Source: Trichodelitschia bisporula
Taxonomy: Eukaryota
Assembly (NCBI GenBank): GCA_010356995.1
Contig: ML996687.1
Location: 1,489,803 to 1,553,802 of the forward strand
Length of the DNA: 64,000 bases
Direction: 5' to 3'
Position 1 is the first letter of the stretch, and each line of letters opens with the position of its first letter. Below, piece after piece: positions 54,251 through 64,000 of this stretch. The position numbers and the translations under genes were made by a program. The notes under the pieces are model-generated. The model made no database searches and was not told the DNA's origin. It worked only from the letters and a program-made list of their open reading frames with translations.

Positions 54251-54683
54251 ACTTTGGGCCTTGAGTGGTGTGAGCTGAGAGGAAGCGCCGGAACGGGTCT
54301 CCAATTGTCTAGATGCTTCGCGATCGTCAATAACGGACGACTGTCCACGTTTCTGGAAACTGCTACGTTGTTAATCTCAGAGTGGGCAATTTCTCGATCA
54401 TTCGAGTTGTACGCATATGCATTTCGTCAGTTGTCACCTTCCGTGGTTCCATGATGAGAATGGGAAGCTGCCTCCAACCTCCAGCAGCTTCCAGAATGCC
54501 TGCCTCACGCCTATATTAGCCTCTTCTTCGACTCCCAAAGTTCGCTCATCAGAACACAAGCAAAACAGTCATTGTATCCAAGCTCTACGATCAAGCGCAC
54601 TACGATCAGCAACTCGACTTCCAACACGATTTTACCGCATCTCCAAACCTAAACATAATTCACTCTCCACTCACACTCCAAAA

Positions 54684-55268
54684 ATGTCGTTCTTCCCGCG
54701 CTTTCACCAAGAGCTCTCCCCTCTCTTCCGCCTTATGGAGGACTACGATCGCACCACTCGCGAGGGTGGTCAACACACCGCGGGCTCTATCCGCAGCTTC
54801 CAGCCCAAGTTCGACATCAAGGAGCTGAAGGACCGCTACGAACTCCAAGGCGAGCTTCCTGGTATCGAGCAAAAGGACATCAACATCGAATGGATGGACG
54901 GCAACAGCCTGACCATCAGCGGGCACGTCGAGTCCCACTACGAGAAGCGCAGCCAGCCCAAGGGCTTCATCGAGGGCGAGCAGCATAATGGCAAGGACTA
55001 CCACCAGCCAACGGTAGAGGACGAGTCCACCGCCAAGAAGGAGGAAACCGCCGTGACGAAGACGGGTAGCAAGGAGGTTCAGAAGCCTCAGCAGGAGGAG
55101 GGCAAGTGGTGGCTTGTCGAGCGCCACGTTGGCGAATTCCATCGCACCTTCAGCTTCCCGACGCGTGTTGAGCATGATGCCGTCAAGGCTAGCCTGAAGA
55201 ACGGCATCCTCTCCATCATCGTGCCTAAGGCTAAGGCTCCTCAGTCACGCAAGGTCGCCATCGAGTAG
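54684..55268 (+). CDS. Small heat-shock protein (HSP20/alpha-crystallin, fungal Hsp30-type)
   Basis: FQPKFDIKE, ELPGIEQKDINIE, ERHVGEFHRTFSFP, ASLKNGILSIIVPK, C-terminal VxI. Confidence 0.93.
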   Translation: MSFFPRFHQELSPLFRLMEDYDRTTREGGQHTAGSIRSFQPKFDIKELKDRYELQGELPGIEQKDINIEWMDGNSLTISGHVESHYEKRSQPKGFIEGEQHNGKDYHQPTVEDESTAKKEETAVTKTGSKEVQKPQQEEGKWWLVERHVGEFHRTFSFPTRVEHDAVKASLKNGILSIIVPKAKAPQSRKVAIE

Positions 55269-55608
55269 ACGAACCTCCGCAAAGACACCGAGTTTCGCCT
55301 TCATGGGTGCTCTTCTGACTTCAGTCATTCTTTCTCTGCATGATGTCGACCACAGCAGCATTAGTATGGAGTTTTCGACTTGGGATTGGCGCAGGTATTG
55401 GAGGACAGGAAGGGGCAGTTTGATGTACTTAGCTCGTTAGCTCGCTCCCAATTGTAATCACTGCCTTTTTGAATTCTTCACATGGTTGATTCTCATTCAA
55501 CTTATCATACACCAACATGAATGTCAAAACAATTAATACCCTCTTACTGTGACCCGAAAACGCCAGAACATTTGATATTCCTGTGGACACCATGTGACGC
55601 GTGGAACT

Positions 55609-56279
55609 TCACATGTTCTCTCGGCCAGTGTTGGCAATCTTCTTCAACTCCCACTCCTTGGTAAACTCGCGGCTGAGGATGTCTAAATCATGCACAATAT
55701 CGCGGCATGCTGTGAGAACCGCTTCTTTAGGTGCAATGCTCCCGTCCGTGCTCACCCGCAGAATGAACTGGGGGATGAGGGGGTGGGGGACATGGTATGC
55801 GCAGAAAGTGATGAAGGGATACTTGAGGAGCCGGCTCGAAATGAGATTGCCGAGTGTGTGGTCCTCCTTATTAAATGTGAACAGGGCCGTGTTCGGGACA
55901 CCTTGTACGAAATCAGTTCCCTGAATGGTGCTGGACATGACGAGACTTACGCGTATCCAACTCCCATGTCACCTTCTTCTCACCGTCGCTCAGGAGGAAG
56001 AGTTCGAATCTGGAAATCGCGCAACTGTCAACATATGCGGGAAACTGCTGAATGCAGTAATCAAACGCAGAGTTCGAAAAGCAGCATACGCCTCCACTTT
56101 CAACAACCCCAACCTCGCATTCCCGAAGTAGTCCATTTTAAGCACTTTTGTGTAGAACAGCCAGATAAGAAGGCTAACAAGAAAAGTTCAAAGAGGAGTG
56201 GCAAGGGCATCCGTTAACCTTGCGGTATGAAACTACTACATCAGTAAAAGAAATGGACGAACCTGTCGGGGGCATTCAT
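55609..56279 (-). CDS. RPB11: RNA polymerase II subunit Rpb11
   Basis: Exons 56279-56263, 56009-55951, 55901-55609 give MNAPDRFELFLL...FNKEDHTLGNL...YHVPHPL. Confidence 0.95.
56025..56240 (-). ncRNA. Candidate intronic H/ACA-like RNA in RPB11 intron 1
   Basis: Two hairpins (AAGGUUAAC/GUUAGCCUU; GAAUGCG/UGCAUUC) separated by an ANANNA box and followed by AUA/ACA. No rRNA target identified. Confidence 0.35.
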
Positions 56280-56754
56280 GGTTTAAATCACTTTGGGTGC
56301 CGGTGCCTCTCGGCTTCCTCAAAAATTGTAATGGCGGGTAAGGGCGAGCAGTCGACCGACTAGGAACAAGTTACGGGCAGTAGGGCTGTTAGGTATGGTT
56401 GCTCCCCTTATTGAAAACGACGTGGCGGAGATAGCGGGAAAGATCAAAACGGAAGACAGGAAGGAGAGAGCGGTGATGGTACGCAGTTGAACATACGGCA
56501 GGCGACGATGTCGTTGAGAGGATTGGAGGTCCGGATCCGCAGTGGCGGTGGCTGCAACCGTTAGCCAGCCACCCCCGCCACCCTAGAGCTACCCGTGCTA
56601 CCGTACCGCACATATTGACGTACTTTGTCCTTTATACCCCCCCGCTGAGCACCCGGCATGGATCTTTTGACGTAAGCATATATAGCCGACGTGTTCAATA
56701 CCGTCAGCAAAACAGTCACACCTTAACCTCAAATCTCTTCATCCTGAGTTGCAT

Positions 56755-57889
56755 ATGGGTAGTCGCAAGCAAGCAATGGCCACAAACCTCCTCGAAGATT
56801 ACCCATGGGTACAGACGCCTCTCATCGTCGGCGCGCCGATGCGCCTCATATCCTTGGCTTCTCTTGCAGTTGAGATATCTAAAGCCGGTGCGATTTCTTA
56901 GCAGTCAAGTGAGCCTCGTCGGTACTGATTGGGATACCGTTCTAGGTGGACTAGGCTTTTTGGCGTCCGCTGAAGACCAACGTAACCTCCAAGCGCACCT
57001 CGAAGAAGCACTGAAGCTCCTCCAAGGCACGTCTCTTTCTACTGCCAACAACACGCTTCCCATAGGCATCGGCTTCCTCAACTGGGGAGCAGACCTCTCT
57101 ATCGCCTTGCCTTTGATCCAGCGCTATCGTCCCGCGGCTATCTGGCTCTTCGGCCCGAGGACAGTAGAGGACTTGACACAATGGACGCGAAAGGCAAGAG
57201 AGGCGACTGGACGAGCCACGAAGGTTTGGGTCCAGATTGGTAGTGTTGTGGAGGCCCTGAAAGTTTGCAAAGCGTGCGAACCGGATGTGCTAGTGGTGCA
57301 GGGTGCCGATGCCGGTGGGCACGGACTAGCCCAATCAGCCAGCATTGTGCCCGGTGTTCCAGAAGTCGACGATGCGCTTTCTGCTGCGCGGAATGAGGGA
57401 TCTTTGGCTGCTGTACCACTTATCATTGCGGCGGGTGGAATCGCCGACGGACGTGGCGTTGCGGCCGCGATGGCTCTGGGGGCTCAAGGTGCAGTCCTCG
57501 GAACAAGATATCTCGCAGCGGAGGAAGCTGTTATTGCCAAAGGCTATCGACAGGAGGTCATACGAGTGAGCGACGGCGGACAAACGACTTTAAGGACATC
57601 TCTGTACGATCGTCTTCGTGGCACCACCTCATGGCCACCGCAATACAACGCTCGTGGCATTCTCAACATGAGCTATTGGGACGGCGTAGGCGGTATGGCG
57701 TTCGAGGAGAATGAAAGGCTGTATCGCGAAGCCATGAACGCTGGTGATGACGGGTGGGGCCCAGAAGGTAGGATGACGACTTATGTCGGAGCGAATGTGG
57801 GCCTAGTGACTAAGGTCCAGTCTGCGAAAGAAATAACGGAGGAGGTAAGGCAGCAAGCGAAAGACGTAATTCGGCGTCTTTATGCCTGA
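56755..57889 (+). CDS. Nitronate monooxygenase (2-nitropropane dioxygenase) family flavoprotein
   Basis: PLIVGAPM, intron 56888-56945, GGLGFL, VVQGADAGGHG, IAAGGIADGRG, LGAQGAVLGTRYLA. Confidence 0.9.
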
Positions 57890-58397
57890 AGATGTGGCGG
57901 TTAAATGTTCGTTCGTTGCGGTCTGGATAGAATTCAATCTCTCCGCTCTGTTGCTGAAACTCTTCGCTCCACTTTTCGGCGCCTGATGAAGTCCTATTAC
58001 GATATGTGATGGAGGGGAATCTGAACTTGAGTGAAAGCTTTTACAGCTCATGAGTTGCCCTTAAGCGAACCTTTTCATATTCTCGGTCTTTGAATGAGTG
58101 ATTGAAGTCAAAGTGTATCACTACAGGAGCGCTACCGATGCCGGATCGGGTTTGACCATGAGGTGTGCAGCATGTGCAGCATACACGTGAAAGCGGCAGG
58201 GGTTCGGGAGCGGTAGTGCAAGAGCCCCACCATCAACGTCATGCCCCGTCAATGCGTTCGCCCTGTCCCGCTTATCCAAGCACTTAACTTCTTCCCACCC
58301 TGCAGTTTTAACAGCAAGCACTCCGCCAAGTTCCATTCCATCACGAAGGAATGCGCCCCAATCTTCATACCAACCATTGGTAACGAACCACTTTTCA

Positions 58398-59946
58398 ATG
58401 TCGACAACCTGGGAACCCCTTCATCCGGGCGCACCGGATGCACTCTCGCGTCTGCCCAAGTCGTACGCAGACGCTGTCGAAGATGGCCTGGAGGACTCGG
58501 AAGATAGGCCAAATGGCTTGCATCCCGGAGAAGGGAGAGGCACTGCGGCGACAACTCCAGGGGAATACACAGGTTCGGGTGAAGGATTATACGAAGCTCC
58601 ACGGAGCCCAGTTCGGCATGGACACAAAAAGCCCGGTTCCCGAGGCGGTGGTAAGCCCAATGGTGAGCCAAAAGCACAACCTACGGGCATCAATGGCTCT
58701 TCGGTGTATGAAAAGTATGATGATGGAAACGGAACACGCCTCGCGAGCGTACAACCTCCCGAGGATCTCCAGGCGAACTTAAGGGGCGACGAAAAGAAGG
58801 GGAAGCCCGACACATCCGCAAAGGGAGAGATGGAGCTTGTAAGCGGGCGGCGTGCTGCCGCTGGCTGGGAGCGCAGCGGGTAAGGTTCCATGATGCAGCT
58901 TCTATCTCGTCCGCTTACCTCTGATGAACAGCATTCGCTGGGCGCCTCTCAACGTCCCTCTCAAGCGTCGTCTCCAGACTTTGATGGTTCTTCTCCACAC
59001 TTTATCCGTCGCTCTCACCGTAACATCTTTCTTTTTCCTCTGCGCTATCCCGTTACTCTGGCCCCTCCTCCTTCCGTACCTCGTCTATATCCTCCTTTCA
59101 AACGCCGGTTCCTCCGGCGAACTCTCCCATCGTTCAGATCGCTTTCGGGGACACAAGATCTGGTCCCTCTTCGCCTCATACTTTCCAGTACGTCTGCATC
59201 GCACGACAACCCTTACTTCGACAAGGAAATACATATTCGGATATCACCCACACGGAATCATAAGCCATGGCGCCTTTGCCGCCTTCGCAACCGAAGCCCT
59301 CGGCTTCTCACAGCTCTTTCCCGGTATCCAGAACACGCTTCTTACTCTGGATTCGAACTTCCGGGTGCCCTTATACAGAGACTACATACTGCGCATGGGC
59401 CTTGCCAGCGTTTCTCGCGAGTCTTGCGAAAATCTCCTGTCCAAAGGTGGCATCAACGGCGAGGGGATGGGTCGCGCAATCACTATCGTTGTAGGCGGGG
59501 CGCGCGAGTCGCTCGAAACACAGCCTGGAACGATGAAGCTAATCATCAACTGCCGCAAAGGATTTGTCAAGTTGGCGATCCGCACGGGTGCCGATTTGGT
59601 TCCTGTCTTGGGGTTCGGTGAAAATGACATCTACGAGCAAATATCCCCCGCGGAGCACCCCCGCCTCCATCGATTCCAGCTATTCATCAAGCGAGTTATG
59701 GGATTTACGGTTCCAATGTTTCACGCCAGAGGCGTGTTCAATTACGACGTGGGCATCATGCCATATCGGCGGCCCATGAATGTGGTTGTTGGACGGCCAG
59801 TTAAGGTGAAAATGCAGGACAAGCCGGACGACAAGTATCTGGATGAAATCCACAGCCAATACGTAAAGGAGTTGCGATTTATTTGGGATACATGGAAGGA
59901 CGAGTTTGCGAAGGAGAGGATCGGGGAACTGGAAATCGTGGAGTGA
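58398..59946 (+). CDS. DGA1: Diacylglycerol O-acyltransferase (DGAT2 family)
   Basis: Intron 58880-58931. WAPLNVPLKRRLQT, YFP, FGYHPHG, GGARE, RKGFVKLA, FGEND. Confidence 0.95.
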
Positions 59947-60225: not shown

Positions 60226-61316
60226 TTAGAAATGGCGCGGGTGAGACCTCTTCAGCTTAGGCGTAGCGGCAGGAACCCAGAGAGTCGTAGTGGTAGTCGC
60301 GACGACCTCGGTGACTGTAACAACCTCAGTGACCATCACCACAGGGGCTTCCTCAGCAGCCGGGGCGGCCGGAGCAACGGACGGAGCCGGAGCGGTATCA
60401 GCCTCAGCGAACGCAGCAGCGGCAGGGGCAGAGTAGGCAGCACTGGCGGCTGGAGCAGCGGAGGCAGCGGGGGAGTAGTCGGCAACGGCAGAAGCCTGGG
60501 CGTTGCTGACGGGGGAAACGGCATTGCCTTGGATCATGACGTCGAAGCAAGTGCTCCACTGCGGCGCGCTGGAGTTGGGGTACTCCCACACCCAGACCAT
60601 CATGTGGCGGCCAGGCGCCATGTCCTTGGGCAGGTTCAGCTCCATCCAGTTGCCCTTGTCGACGAGCCCCTGGGTCGGCGACGTGATGGACTTATCGGCG
60701 GGGTAGGCGAAGGAGTTGTCGGAGAAGCCAGCCGACTGCAGCTTGTTGACGGCGGTGAACTCGGAGATGTCGGTGATTTCAGCCTCCGGCTTGCCCTTCC
60801 AGTAGACGGAGACGGTACCCGGCGTACCACCGGGAACATTGGAACCGCGAGCGTGGCCGTTGCCGCCGAAGCGGAGGCGGATCATGCTGCCCGGCGCAGC
60901 TGATGCCATGGGCGCATTGTCCTGGTACGTGGGGGAGCGTTGGGCGGGAGGGCAGGCGTGGGTGTCGGCGGGGTGGAAGGAGCCGCCGTCCCATGAGTTG
61001 GCTCCGATGTTCCAAACGTAGTTGGTCGAGTCGTCAATCCAGTTGCCGGGGTTCTTCTTGTTGCGCGGCCATCCCTTGCAAAGATAGGCATACTCAGGCA
61101 TTCTGATATTCGGTTAGCGATACCGCTCTGGGGCATATATGAAAGATGGGAATAGGATACTCACGTGGGATCGACGATGACGGGCGGGCTCTTGGTCGAG
61201 TTGCCTTGCATCCATTTGAGAATCTCAGTGTTATCATGGTCCGCACATTCGAGCCATGAGTGAGCCGAGACGGTCGAAATGGCCGCCAACGAGGCAACGA
61301 GCAGTTGTGTGAACAT
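60226..61316 (-). CDS. Secreted His1 (histidine-brace) LPMO-like protein with Ala/Pro/Thr-rich tail
   Basis: Signal peptide MFTQLLVASLAAISTVSA then mature HSWLEC. Intron 61103-61164. Second His in RFGGNGH, then LPKDMAPGRHMMVWVW and STCFDV as in LPMO-fold proteins. Confidence 0.78.
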
Positions 61317-63509
61317 GTTGAAGGAATGAATGTCCTGGAATCGAATTTGTACAGGTATCAAGTGGTATCAAAGAGCACTTTGCGGTCAAGTTTCAGTAAC
61401 AAGCCAACCAGTGGTGGTTTTAAAGGATAGTCGTGAGTATGGACAAGGAGTGACGTGGTGAATGAATGACAGAACCGGCCTGACGAAAAAGAGTGATGCG
61501 CAAAAGAGGGAAAGATGTAGGACAGAGGGAGATTCTCAAACTTAACTGCTCGCTCGGATGGCAAAGAGACTCCTTTAGAGCATGGTGAGAAAACGGGTAC
61601 CGGCCCACGACTACCCAAGGCTAGTCGCCGACTCGCCTCCACTTCTCCACTCATTCCAGCCTTGCCCGTTTATTCGTGCTAAGTGGCGGACAGGAGGAAA
61701 CACGCGAGCAGATTGCAGGGAATCCAGGAACGAAGGTTGGATAGGCTTGCTGCAAAGGGGACTGAGAGAGCGAATCAGGAGCATCGTGAGAGGCCAAGAT
61801 AGGGAAATTACAGGCAGATCTGGTGTCGCAGGACCTGGCGCCGATCTAGACGTTGGTTCCTGGATTACGCCTACGCTATTTTTCGCCGTGCACTTTCCCG
61901 TTTTTCCTTGGTTGCCCCGAGGCCGGATATCAGCTACGGTTGGGGGTTATTCGGTCTTCTGCCTTTCGCGCCCGGCCGGAGGCGAATGGGTGACGTAGAA
62001 GAATGATAGGAAGGTTTGTTTCTGTGTTCCCTCTCAGGGGCAAAAAAGGGCGTCTAAAGGGACTGTCCCTTCAAGGGTACGAGGCCTGTAAGTGGCAGGC
62101 TCTCGCGCCGGTGAAACACCGAACAACCCCTCATGTCCCACGTCTCCCGTGCTCCCCTAGCCAACCCACCAACCCCACCCCCGAAAAACATCCTCTTGGC
62201 CGACCCTGTTCCCGGCGTGCCCGGTTCTGAGAGGCCCATCTCGAAAGGGAAACTCTCCAGGAAAACACCAGGAGAGACGTCAGGAGAAACAAAAGACCTT
62301 GGGCCATGCACTCTGTTCGTGTGATCCCCCCCCTTGTTTTCAGCTGTTTCCAGTCTTGCTCGCCCTCTCTCCTGCATGCTCGCCCTCTCTCGGGCTTGCC
62401 ATTAACATGAGCAGGGCCTCCTTCGGCCCGGTGAACGCACCGTTCGTACTACGTATTTCGTACTTCGTACGTCGTCAGCACCGCCCCCATTTCCACGCGC
62501 TTGTCTCCACTTCATCCCCGAAATATCACGGACATTAAGGCCGCGCGGGAGATCTGCACCTTAATTTTGCGAGTTACGACGGCCCGCTCGTGCAGTAGGC
62601 ACGTACCAGATAATACCACGGGCGGAATTTCGTCACAAAAGCAACTCCAGCAAAAGTCACCTCATTCTGTCCCGCATGGGGGTGGGGACTTCGGGAATGC
62701 TTGCGCAATGCGTGTTCTGAAAACATACCGGCAACCTGACTCCCTGGTTGAAACACCATCCGCCGCCTCGCCGCAGCCGCTGGCATGCAGCGGTACTACG
62801 GTACTACCTACTACCGCAGTTTAGCCCATGAGCCTTCTGGACAAGCTTTCGCTCGTGAATAATCAGTCGGGTCTTCGGAGCAATCTCTCGGGCCAGTTTG
62901 CCTTACGCGGGTGCGGAGCCCAGTCGGAACAGGGAAGCCTCGTCAGCGGAGGAAGAACCGGCCACGCTTAAAATGGGATTTTATGTCCTGATTCCCGAAG
63001 GATAAAGCTGAGAAAACATCCTGAATGTTTTGGCTTGTCATTCAGATCTGCTTTGCAGCTACAAACAACCTGCGTAGATTCCTTCGTCGGAATGCTTAAA
63101 CGCGCATCCTAAAACATCGGTCCGGACGGATGTAGTCATGGTCCGTCCAAGAGGTGTCTGCCAGTTCATTCAGTGCAGTTTGCTATGTGTGTCGTAACAT
63201 AGAAAAGCGACCTGTTTTTATGAAGGTGATAGGTATGCGCTATCCGATATGTAGTCGCTATCAGTTGGACTTGTAAATACGTCTGAGATGGCCGTTTCAT
63301 GCCATGCCAAAGTTCTTCGTTTTGTGCTCTGAGCGTTGTGTGTGAAACAATGCCAAGACAATGTGCTCGTCATTGAGAGCTCTGGCGACGTTGCATGGCG
63401 TTGTGGCCGTGCTTCAGGCAGCCTTGGACTTGAGCCTCAACTGCTCCAGACGACCGCAAGACGCATTCAAGGCTATCTTATTATTGCACATTTCGCACCA
63501 CGGTTCAGC

Positions 63510-64000
63510 ATGATCCACGAGTTCCTGCAGGTATTGATTCTAGTGTCCTGCTGAAGGTCGCGAAGCTAATACGGATACCGTGCAGCGGCTTGCCTTCCTC
63601 CTGGACCGACCACTGTTCCCATGGAAGAAACTGGTCATCGCCTTCTCTCTGGGCCAGTTTACCCTTGAGAATTGGCTGCTGTCGAGGCAGTATGGTGTGT
63701 ATCAGCGCACAGTCAGGCCCAAGGCGTTGGAGAAGGAAGTTGATCAGGCAACCTTCGACAAAAGCCAGGTATGTCTACACGCACCTTGTTGCAGATTCAA
63801 TCTGACCTTCGTAGGCATATGGGCGCGCAAAAGCCAAGTTTCAGTTCGTTTCCTCCGTCATCAACGAAATCACAAAGCTCGCCATCATCCACTTCGATGT
63901 ATGGCCAAAGGTCTGGGCATTTGTCGGGCTCGGTGTGGCTCAGTATTCCCCGACGCGCTTCTCGGGTGAAATCACACAGTCTCTCCTCTACTTCTTCGTC
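63510..64000 (+). CDS. STE24: CaaX prenyl protease Ste24 (5' part, truncated by window end)
   Basis: LDRPLFPWKKLVIAFSLGQF.LE.WL..RQY...FDKSQAYGRAKAKF. Introns 63531-63585 and 63769-63814. Confidence 0.92.

What the first reader, a model, noticed from the sequence alone, without database searches (positions are those of the whole stretch)
60226..61316. LPMO-like His-brace protein with Trp at the apparent axial Tyr/Phe position
Seen: predicted cleavage after VSA exposes His1 (HSWLEC), with a second His in GGNGH and final strands GRHMMVWVW and PQWSTCFDV. Established: AA9/AA10/AA11 LPMOs use His1 plus a second His, with an axial aromatic (Tyr in AA9/AA11, e.g. QxYxxC and ExYxxCAD) shortly before a C-terminal Cys. 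Here the residue three before Cys is Trp, and the sequence fits no AA family I recognise. It resembles uncharacterised fungal HSW...NGH...TC.D proteins. A low-complexity tail ends in KRSHPRHF, like His/Arg tails on some fungal LPMOs. Inference: an unclassified copper enzyme or copper-binding protein with an altered active site.
Basis: partly seen in the sequence, partly recalled or inferred. Interest (0 to 1): 0.75.

Follow-up and report, generated by a model that had tools for sequence, protein, structure and literature searches.

The report
Fungal LPMO-like protein with axial tryptophan
A real, spliced fungal gene encodes a secreted protein with the fold and copper-binding histidines of the polysaccharide-cleaving enzymes called LPMOs, but its untested subfamily mostly has tryptophan where LPMOs have tyrosine or phenylalanine, and lacks their helper glutamate at its usual place.

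Summary
Observation confirmed and extended. The gene has two exons and encodes 342 aa. Its 62-nt intron is spliced out in public contigs. It belongs to Pfam DUF7492, for which I found no paper. A model of an 80%-identical relative matches LPMO or LPMO-like structures in the top 22 rows. Trp215 falls on the axial Tyr/Phe by profile alignment to AA11 and by structural register in 5 of 6 checkable structures.

In a 35-row clade the catalytic Glu/Gln two residues before the axial residue is almost gone (1 of 35, against 53 of 64 outside). A W-x-x-E-S helix appears instead (32 of 35, against 0 of 64) and overlays the substrate-binding L2 motif of AA10/AA11. Trp is common but not obligatory: Phe and Tyr also occur. 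The same genome holds a conventional Glu/Tyr paralogue.

Best reading (0.45): a His-brace copper peroxygenase acting on an insoluble glycan, with a rebuilt second sphere. Rivals are a copper carrier or an H2O2-making oxidase. Copper binding, brace geometry and activity are untested. New variant of a known kind; interest 0.62.

The parts
61165..61316 (-). Exon 1: signal peptide, His1 and first strand (50 codons + 2 nt)
61263..61316 (-). Predicted 18-residue signal peptide ending VSA
   Evidence: hydropathy 1.4-2.7 over the first ten 9-residue windows; homologues; no predictor run
61260..61262 (-). His1 of the mature protein (presumed brace residue)
   Evidence: model residue 1 aligns with residue 1 of AA15, AA11, AA13 and AA9 chains
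61103..61164 (-). 62-nt GT-AG intron
   Evidence: predicted; skipped in contigs of runs X1 and X2
60226..61102 (-). Exon 2: rest of the DUF7492 LPMO-fold domain, tail and stop codon
61027..61041 (-). Clade-specific W-x-x-E/D-S helix (Trp54, Asp57, Ser58 here) in the L2 region; candidate substrate-binding face and candidate second-sphere acid
   Evidence: 32 of 35 in clade, 0 of 64 outside; overlays CBP21 Tyr54 / CbpD Tyr40 region within about 2 residues
60853..60861 (-). N-G-H: Asn114 (where AA11 has Ala) and His116 (second brace His)
   Evidence: His at this column in 99 of 99 rows; Asn in 34 of 35 clade rows; coordinates
60562..60564 (-). Pro213, at the position of the catalytic Glu/Gln of AA9, AA11 and cellulose-type AA10
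   Evidence: profile alignment to AA11 E-M-Y; counts
60556..60558 (-). Trp215, at the axial Tyr/Phe position
   Evidence: TGG codon
60547..60549 (-). Cys218; probable disulfide to Cys83 (60954-60952), with Cys6-Cys41 a probable second pair (pairings inferred)
   Evidence: four Cys in the protein; conserved
60229..60525 (-). 99-residue Ala/Val/Pro/Thr/Ser-rich tail ending KRSHPRHF; basic end, not a GPI-type hydrophobic end
   Evidence: composition and hydropathy; similar H-x-R-x-F/L end in 24 of 41 homologue tails over 30 aa

Best explanation
A secreted DUF7492 protein with the LPMO beta-sandwich fold that works like an LPMO but has a rebuilt copper surround. Shown by tools: gene, splicing, fold of a close relative, and residue register. 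Inferred steps: (1) signal cleavage frees His1, which with His116 binds one copper as a histidine brace; (2) Trp215 lies under the copper as a non-coordinating aromatic buttress, like Phe in AA10, and can also drain oxidising holes towards the conserved W-x-W strand; (3) the L2 helix presents Trp54 on the binding face to dock an insoluble glycan, most likely chitin or beta-glucan of fungal walls; (4) the acid of that helix (Asp57 here, Glu in most relatives) replaces the lost Glu/Gln in positioning H2O2, in the way CBP21 supplies Glu60 from L2; (5) reduced copper plus H2O2 oxidises a glycosidic carbon. The tail is an optional disordered extension.
For: Fold: top 22 of 50 listed VIA rows are LPMO or LPMO-like, Z 9.1-7.1, rmsd 3.1-5.8; Foldseek E to 3e-6. 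The family profile finds AA11 sequences at E 1e-8 to 3e-6 and aligns E-x-Y-x-x-C in register. His116 is present in 99 of 99 rows without being selected for. Loss of -2 Glu/Gln (1 of 35 against 53 of 64) coincides with gain of W-x-x-E/D/Q (32 of 35 against 0 of 64) on one branch, SH-aLRT 99 in a quick tree; a further 38 sequences give 1 of 38. The helix overlays CBP21 residue 54, CbpD 40 and AfAA11A 24, the substrate-binding Tyr positions (PMC9344471, PMC8668981, passages). Relocation of the Glu between L2 and the last strand is documented in AA10 (PMC9344471, PMC12186267, passages). 4 of 87 family rows carry carbohydrate-binding modules, all outside this clade.
Against: No coordinates were available, so no distance to the metal site was measured. 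By C-alpha register, residue 57 falls on CBP21 Glu55 (described as a substrate-binding position), not on Glu60; the residue on Glu60 would be Val62. The helix is the least confident part of both models (pLDDT 75 and 61). This protein has Asp, and 3 clade rows have Leu or Ala there. The two changes happened on one branch, so they are one event and not repeated co-variation. Asn114 sits where AA11 has Ala69 and could crowd the reactive face. No carbohydrate-binding module was found on any clade row scanned. AfAA11B (9exj, 9hdg) did not fit the end-of-range register. I found no activity data for any DUF7492 protein.
Confidence: 0.45

Rival explanations
1. A non-catalytic copper carrier or buffer, like X325/Bim1 or YcnI. 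The brace binds copper, Trp215 cushions it by cation-pi contact, and losing the Glu/Gln switches off the chemistry.
For: The Glu/Gln described as crucial for LPMO activity (PMC10472438 Introduction; PMC9344471 passage) is missing from its usual place. A Trp in cation-pi contact with brace-type copper is known in YcnI (Trp137, 3.4 A) and CusF (PMC8424229, passages). LaX325 is among the fold matches, Z 7.7.
Against: No GPI-type end. No fourth ligand like the X325 Asp was identified. A conserved surface Trp on the substrate face is easier to explain by glycan binding. The one copper-response-like site upstream is at chance level (14 found, 10 expected) and absent from 3 of 3 related upstream regions checked.
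Confidence: 0.25
2. A copper oxidase that makes H2O2 or oxidises small phenolics, feeding other LPMOs or peroxidases, as reported for some AA16 proteins.
For: Axial and second-sphere residues set redox potential and oxidase rate (PMC10472438, PMC12186267, passages). An AA16 protein inactive on polysaccharides but producing H2O2 is described (PMC13353379, passage). The genome has many AA9 partners (30 exon-level matches).
Against: A Glu-Phe type site is said to go with low oxidase activity (PMC10472438, passage). The conserved L2 surface Trp suggests a polymer partner. There is no direct evidence.
Confidence: 0.2
3. A degenerate LPMO-fold protein that binds glycan or a partner without needing copper.
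For: The axial residue drifts among W, F, Y and L in the clade. A broken copy occurs in L006-L008.
Against: His116 is kept in 35 of 35 clade rows, and HSW follows the leader in full-length homologues. The gene is intact and spliced.
Confidence: 0.1

Closest known systems
Pfam DUF7492 (PF24320), including the paralogue at G000:C2 (L002:1453-2610)
   Same: HSW start, NGH, W-x-W strand, x-x-C-x-D end; 79 of 87 aligned family rows hit it; best Atlas feature hits 0.91.
   Different: The paralogue scores 285 bits and has E-T-Y before the Cys. This protein scores 48.7 bits, has P-Q-W, carries the extra W-x-x-E-S helix, and has D-K-G-N-W where 58 of 64 outside rows have a Cys.
AA11 LPMOs (AoAA11 4MAH/4MAI, AfAA11A 7P3U, AfAA11B 9EXJ)
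   Same: Closest solved sequences to the family profile (E 1e-8 to 3e-6); same fold (Z 8.4-8.6); same last-two-strand motif.
   Different: AA11 has Tyr-Glu and Ala two before the second His. Here it is Trp, Pro and Asn, with a much longer L2 region; identity 17-22% over the structural alignment.
AA10 LPMOs (CBP21 2BEM, ScAA10C 4OY7, CbpD 7SQX)
   Same: Non-coordinating axial aromatic; L2 surface motif at the same place; precedent for supplying the Glu from L2.
   Different: AA10 uses Phe and keeps a Glu near the copper. Here it is Trp, and no Glu sits at either AA10 position by register.
AA15 (5MSZ), AA9, AA13, AA14, AA16
   Same: Fold and N-terminal His (best row AA15, Z 9.1, rmsd 3.7, 153 aligned).
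   Different: Pfam AA9 only below cut-off for a relative (20.9 against 27.8 bits) and not listed for this protein; no Trp axial residue in the passages read.
X325/Bim1 (DUF6595) and YcnI (DUF1775)
   Same: His-brace copper proteins without shown LPMO activity; YcnI has a conserved Trp beside the copper (PMC8424229).
   Different: X325 has an Asp ligand and a GPI anchor (PMC10952591, PMC8615602). YcnI has one His and a cupredoxin fold. Neither feature was found here.

Membership tests
DUF7492 (PF24320) | Score above the Pfam gathering cut-off | tested here: met
   48.7 bits against 27, E 7.8e-13, for exon 2 alone; divergent compared with 285 bits for the paralogue
LPMO superfamily | Immunoglobulin-like beta-sandwich LPMO fold | tested here: met
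   Model of the relative P0001, pLDDT 92.5; top 22 rows LPMO or LPMO-like, Z up to 9.1; window-derived partial model agrees
LPMO superfamily | His at position 1 after signal cleavage | tested here: inconclusive
   Hydropathy and homologue pattern fit; no predictor, no protein data
LPMO superfamily | Second His forming the brace geometry | tested here: inconclusive
   His116 in 99 of 99 rows; geometry not measurable because no coordinates were returned
LPMO superfamily | Axial Tyr or Phe | tested here: not met
   Trp215 occupies the position
LPMO superfamily | Second-sphere Glu/Gln near the copper | tested here: inconclusive
   Absent at the -2 position (Pro213); Asp57 on the L2 helix is a candidate, distance unknown
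LPMO superfamily | Copper binding and oxidative cleavage of a polysaccharide | not testable with these tools
   Needs recombinant protein
AA11 | Tyr-Glu active site with Ala two before the second His | tested here: not met
   Trp, Pro and Asn at those positions (AA11 residues from PMC8668981, PMC12186267)
AA9 | Pfam AA9 above cut-off; Q-x-Y-x-x-C | tested here: not met
   Not listed for this protein at E<=1; motif is P-Q-W-S-T-C
AA10 | Pfam LPMO_10 match; axial Phe with Glu | tested here: not met
   Not listed; 1 of 87 family rows at E 5e-4
X325/Bim1 | GPI anchor | tested here: not met
   C-terminus is basic and hydrophilic; no GPI predictor run
X325/Bim1 | Asp as fourth copper ligand | not testable with these tools
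   No coordinates

The most novel reading that the evidence does not exclude
The founding member of a new His-brace enzyme class in which a Trp directly under the copper acts as a redox partner (Cu plus Trp radical), and the acid that steers H2O2 comes from a third site, the L2 helix. That would give chemistry or substrates unlike known LPMOs, in a subfamily spread over Dothideomycetes, some Sordariomycetes, Pezizomycetes and chytrids. The Phe-bearing members argue against an obligatory Trp radical.
Probability: 0.15. Interest if true: 0.85.

Novelty: new variant of a known kind. Interest (0 to 1): 0.62.

Why it matters
Reviews describe the residue under the LPMO copper as Tyr or Phe and a nearby Glu/Gln as needed for activity (PMC13353379, PMC10472438, PMC9344471; passages). 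What the axial residue does is still debated (PMC13431639, passage). This subfamily varies the axial residue naturally among Trp, Phe and Tyr on a background lacking the usual Glu, and this genome holds a conventional Glu/Tyr paralogue as a built-in control. That makes a direct test of what turns a His-brace protein into an enzyme or a carrier. It would also be the first functional handle I could find on DUF7492, a wide family seen here in ascomycetes, chytrids, Mortierellomycota and an oomycete, with relatives in several crop-associated fungi. Caveat: databases already give automatic LPMO-like names to some members, so the fold assignment alone is not new.

Tried and rejected
Single-sequence search of the PDB: 0 hits at E<=10.

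Paper searches for DUF7492, and for PF24320, a recalled InterPro number, three locus tags and 'axial tryptophan': 0 papers. The locus tags were searched with underscores removed, so papers printing them differently could be missed. Topic searches listed no paper on this family by title or abstract start. The library lacks most subscription papers, and no supplements were searched, so the family could be listed in a secretome or effector table.

PxLPMO1 (His52; PMC8035642), TrsA (Egh16; PMC12377627) and the A. nidulans His1-methylated proteins (bioRxiv 2022.10.03.510680) were read in passages; none looks like this family, but sequences were not compared.

A copper-response-like 8-mer (motif recalled) at 61497-61504 is at chance level. 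No functional gene cluster: neighbours are a DGAT, a nitronate monooxygenase and an Hsp20. Earlier-findings look-ups by sequence and by the long word list were empty. No holder is on record as RNA, and contig depth was not used to rank expression.

The careful tree did not finish, so the quick tree is quoted. Its leaf labels were mis-indexed for 11 rows with short C-termini, so all counts come from alignment columns. Five near-duplicate rows were dropped (104 to 99). A strict 'Trp is essential' reading was rejected because Phe, Tyr and Leu occur in the clade. The Atlas structure search had no model for P0001. No complex prediction was run, since no binding partner is claimed.

Full report
1. 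Observation. The window is fungal. The finding covers a minus-strand gene, 61316-60226. Enumerating introns gave one solution: a 62-nt GT-AG intron at 61164-61103 joining an 18-residue leader and HSWLEC to a 291-codon second exon, 342 aa in all. Contigs from 2 of 3 public runs laid on the region (one sample; their RNA status is a guess) skip exactly these 62 bases and show no other joint. In mature numbering the residues are His1, His116, Pro213, Gln214, Trp215 and Cys218. Signal cleavage is inferred from hydropathy and from 26 of 62 homologues that have HSW after a signal-length leader.

2. Family. Exon 2 matches Pfam DUF7492 above its cut-off. The genome holds one other match, a far more typical member on another contig (286 bits) ending E-T-Y-T-T-C-M-D. 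Homologue searches gave 62 close hits, 368 representatives at E<=0.001 of which 150 were listed, and 163 hits of which 120 were listed. Named close relatives are Dothideomycetes (Venturia, Microthyrium, Massariosphaeria, Didymella, Epicoccum, Parastagonospora, Pyrenophora) and some Sordariomycetes (Diaporthe, Lasiosphaeria). A sister group lies in Pezizomycetes (Ascobolus, Rhizina, Tuber, Wilcoxina) and chytrids (Rhizophlyctis, Phlyctochytrium). More distant members include Mortierellomycota and Pythium.

3. Fold. I modelled the mature domain of P0001, about 80% identical to exon 2, as a stand-in for the spliced protein (pLDDT 92.5, pTM 0.89). Foldseek returned AA10, AA9 and AA11 structures. 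In the search against 48,161 chains the first 22 rows were all LPMO or LPMO-like: AA15 Z 9.1, AA10 8.8, AA11 8.6, AA13 8.3, AA9 8.2, X325 7.7, AA16 7.1. Such Z values are moderate on their own; the uniform ranking is the evidence. No one family stands out.

4. The tryptophan. Two lines place it in the axial slot. A profile of 87 family members finds AA11 sequences (E 1.2e-8, 3.6e-8, 2.6e-6) and aligns the family's E-x-Y-x-x-C with AA11 E-M-Y-M-N-C. In the structural alignments the Trp is ten residues before the model's end. Counting back ten from the aligned end gives AfAA11A 133 (Tyr133, PMC8668981), LsAA9A 164 (Tyr164, PMC13431639), ScAA10C 219 (Phe185 in mature numbering, PMC12186267), NcAA9C 166 (Tyr166, PMC10472438) and CbpD 176 (two after Glu174, PMC9344471). 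AfAA11B did not fit (end 176, Tyr141). So 5 of 6 checkable structures agree; ranges give end points only and assume no gap. Among the 62 close hits, 55 reach the motif: 48 Trp, 7 Phe. Among 55 further sequences, 38 reach it: 21 Trp, 9 Tyr, 7 Phe, 1 Leu. Outside the clade it is Tyr in 62 and Phe in 2 of 64 rows (the domain-cutting rule required an N-terminal His motif and preferred an aromatic match when several existed). Trp is therefore the commonest clade state but not a requirement.

5. A quick tree of 99 full-length domains has a long branch (SH-aLRT 99) bounding 35 rows. Inside it, Glu/Gln two residues before the axial residue occurs in 1 of 35 rows against 53 of 64 outside, and a W-x-x-E/D/Q motif occurs in 32 of 35 against 0 of 64. 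A Cys kept in 58 of 64 outside rows is replaced by D-K-G-N-W or a similar motif. To locate the new helix I folded the window's own sequence from Gly52 onward and read where alignments start. Model residue 5 (mature 56) pairs with CBP21 54 and CbpD 40, and residue 4 with AfAA11A 24. These are at or next to the surface tyrosines that bind substrate and open the L2 motif (PMC9344471, PMC8668981). The helix is thus on the binding face. The register is loose: Trp54 lies two residues before the paired position, local pLDDT is 61-75, and residue 57 falls on CBP21 Glu55 rather than the catalytic Glu60. This protein has Asp57. Two residues before His116 the family has Asn where AfAA11A has Ala69.

6. 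Mechanism. I commit to an LPMO-like peroxygenase with a rebuilt second sphere (0.45): a His1/His116 copper site, Trp215 as a non-coordinating buttress and hole drain, Trp54 docking an insoluble glycan, and Asp/Glu57 positioning H2O2. Relocation of the Glu to L2 has a precedent in SmAA10A (PMC12186267, PMC9344471). The substrate guess (chitin or beta-glucan of fungal walls) is inference from the AA11 kinship and the L2 overlay; nothing here tests it. Rivals are a copper carrier (0.25; Trp-Cu cation-pi contact in YcnI and CusF, PMC8424229), an H2O2-making oxidase (0.2; AA16 precedent, PMC13353379) and a copper-free binder (0.1). Carbohydrate-binding modules occur on 4 of 87 family rows, none inside the clade.

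7. Tail and context. The 99-residue low-complexity tail ends in a basic His/Arg motif shared by 24 of 41 homologue tails, but several close relatives have no tail. Disordered LPMO tails are common (PMC8615602, passages), and one binds copper through terminal His residues (bioRxiv 2025.11.04.686606, abstract only). Neighbouring genes are housekeeping types, and an upstream copper-response-like site is at chance level.

8. Novelty. Membership of DUF7492 is met; membership of AA9, AA10, AA11 or X325 is not. Ten paper searches were run; the name and accession searches found nothing, and topic searches listed no study of the family or of a natural axial Trp. The library omits most subscription journals and I searched no supplements. 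Automatic database names already call some members LPMO or chitin-binding proteins. What looks undescribed is the active-site combination. What I saw of each paper: PMC10472438, Introduction and passages; PMC13431639, PMC13353379, PMC8668981, PMC9344471, PMC12186267, PMC8424229, PMC10952591, PMC8615602, PMC8035642, PMC12377627 and bioRxiv 2022.10.03.510680, passages; bioRxiv 2025.11.04.686606, abstract.

9. Verdict. A real gene and a correct observation: a new variant of the His-brace LPMO-fold kind, with two linked departures at the copper site and a conventional paralogue as control. Function is untested and geometry unmeasured. Interest 0.62.

Noticed in passing
L002:1453-2610 (G000:C2): Conventional DUF7492 paralogue, 385 aa, with HSW, NGH and E-T-Y-T-T-C; 26% identical to the clade relative P0001. 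A natural control.
   Followed up: partly
P0068, P0070, P0071, P0072, P0078, P0080, P0083 (C-terminal parts): The Pezizomycete/chytrid sister group carries a Cys-rich C-terminal module of about 50 residues; no Pfam match for it in the five of these scanned. It may be a new binding module.
   Followed up: partly
L006:4735-5700 (L007 and L008 give the same match): A degenerate clade member: Y-G-H in place of N-G-H, and the frame shifts inside the domain; probably a pseudogene or an assembly error.
   Followed up: partly
P0107, P0115, P0155, P0175: Glu/Tyr-type DUF7492 relatives fused to CBM96, Carb_bind, CBM2 and CBM1, good first targets for finding the family's substrate.
   Followed up: no
Atlas search with P0030: With DUF7492 clusters excluded, the best feature hit (0.88, lead only) is an unnamed cluster mostly from giant viruses.
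   Followed up: no
window 54417-59946 and 63580-64000: Neighbours: Hsp20 (54417-55268 +), nitronate monooxygenase (56615-57889 +) and DGAT (58924-59946 +) by Pfam; by recall, an RNA polymerase subunit-like ORF (55609-55938 -) and a CAAX protease-like gene from 63580 (+).
   Followed up: partly
window 61497-61504 (-): One TTTGCGCA site about 180 nt upstream of the start codon, resembling a recalled copper-response element; at chance frequency.
   Followed up: yes
P0100, P0104, P0124, P0129, P0133, P0135, P0140, P0169 and P0155-type rows: Other DUF7492 subgroups have Asp or Lys two residues before the second His (8 and 9 of 64 outside rows), so further active-site variants exist in the family.
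   Followed up: no
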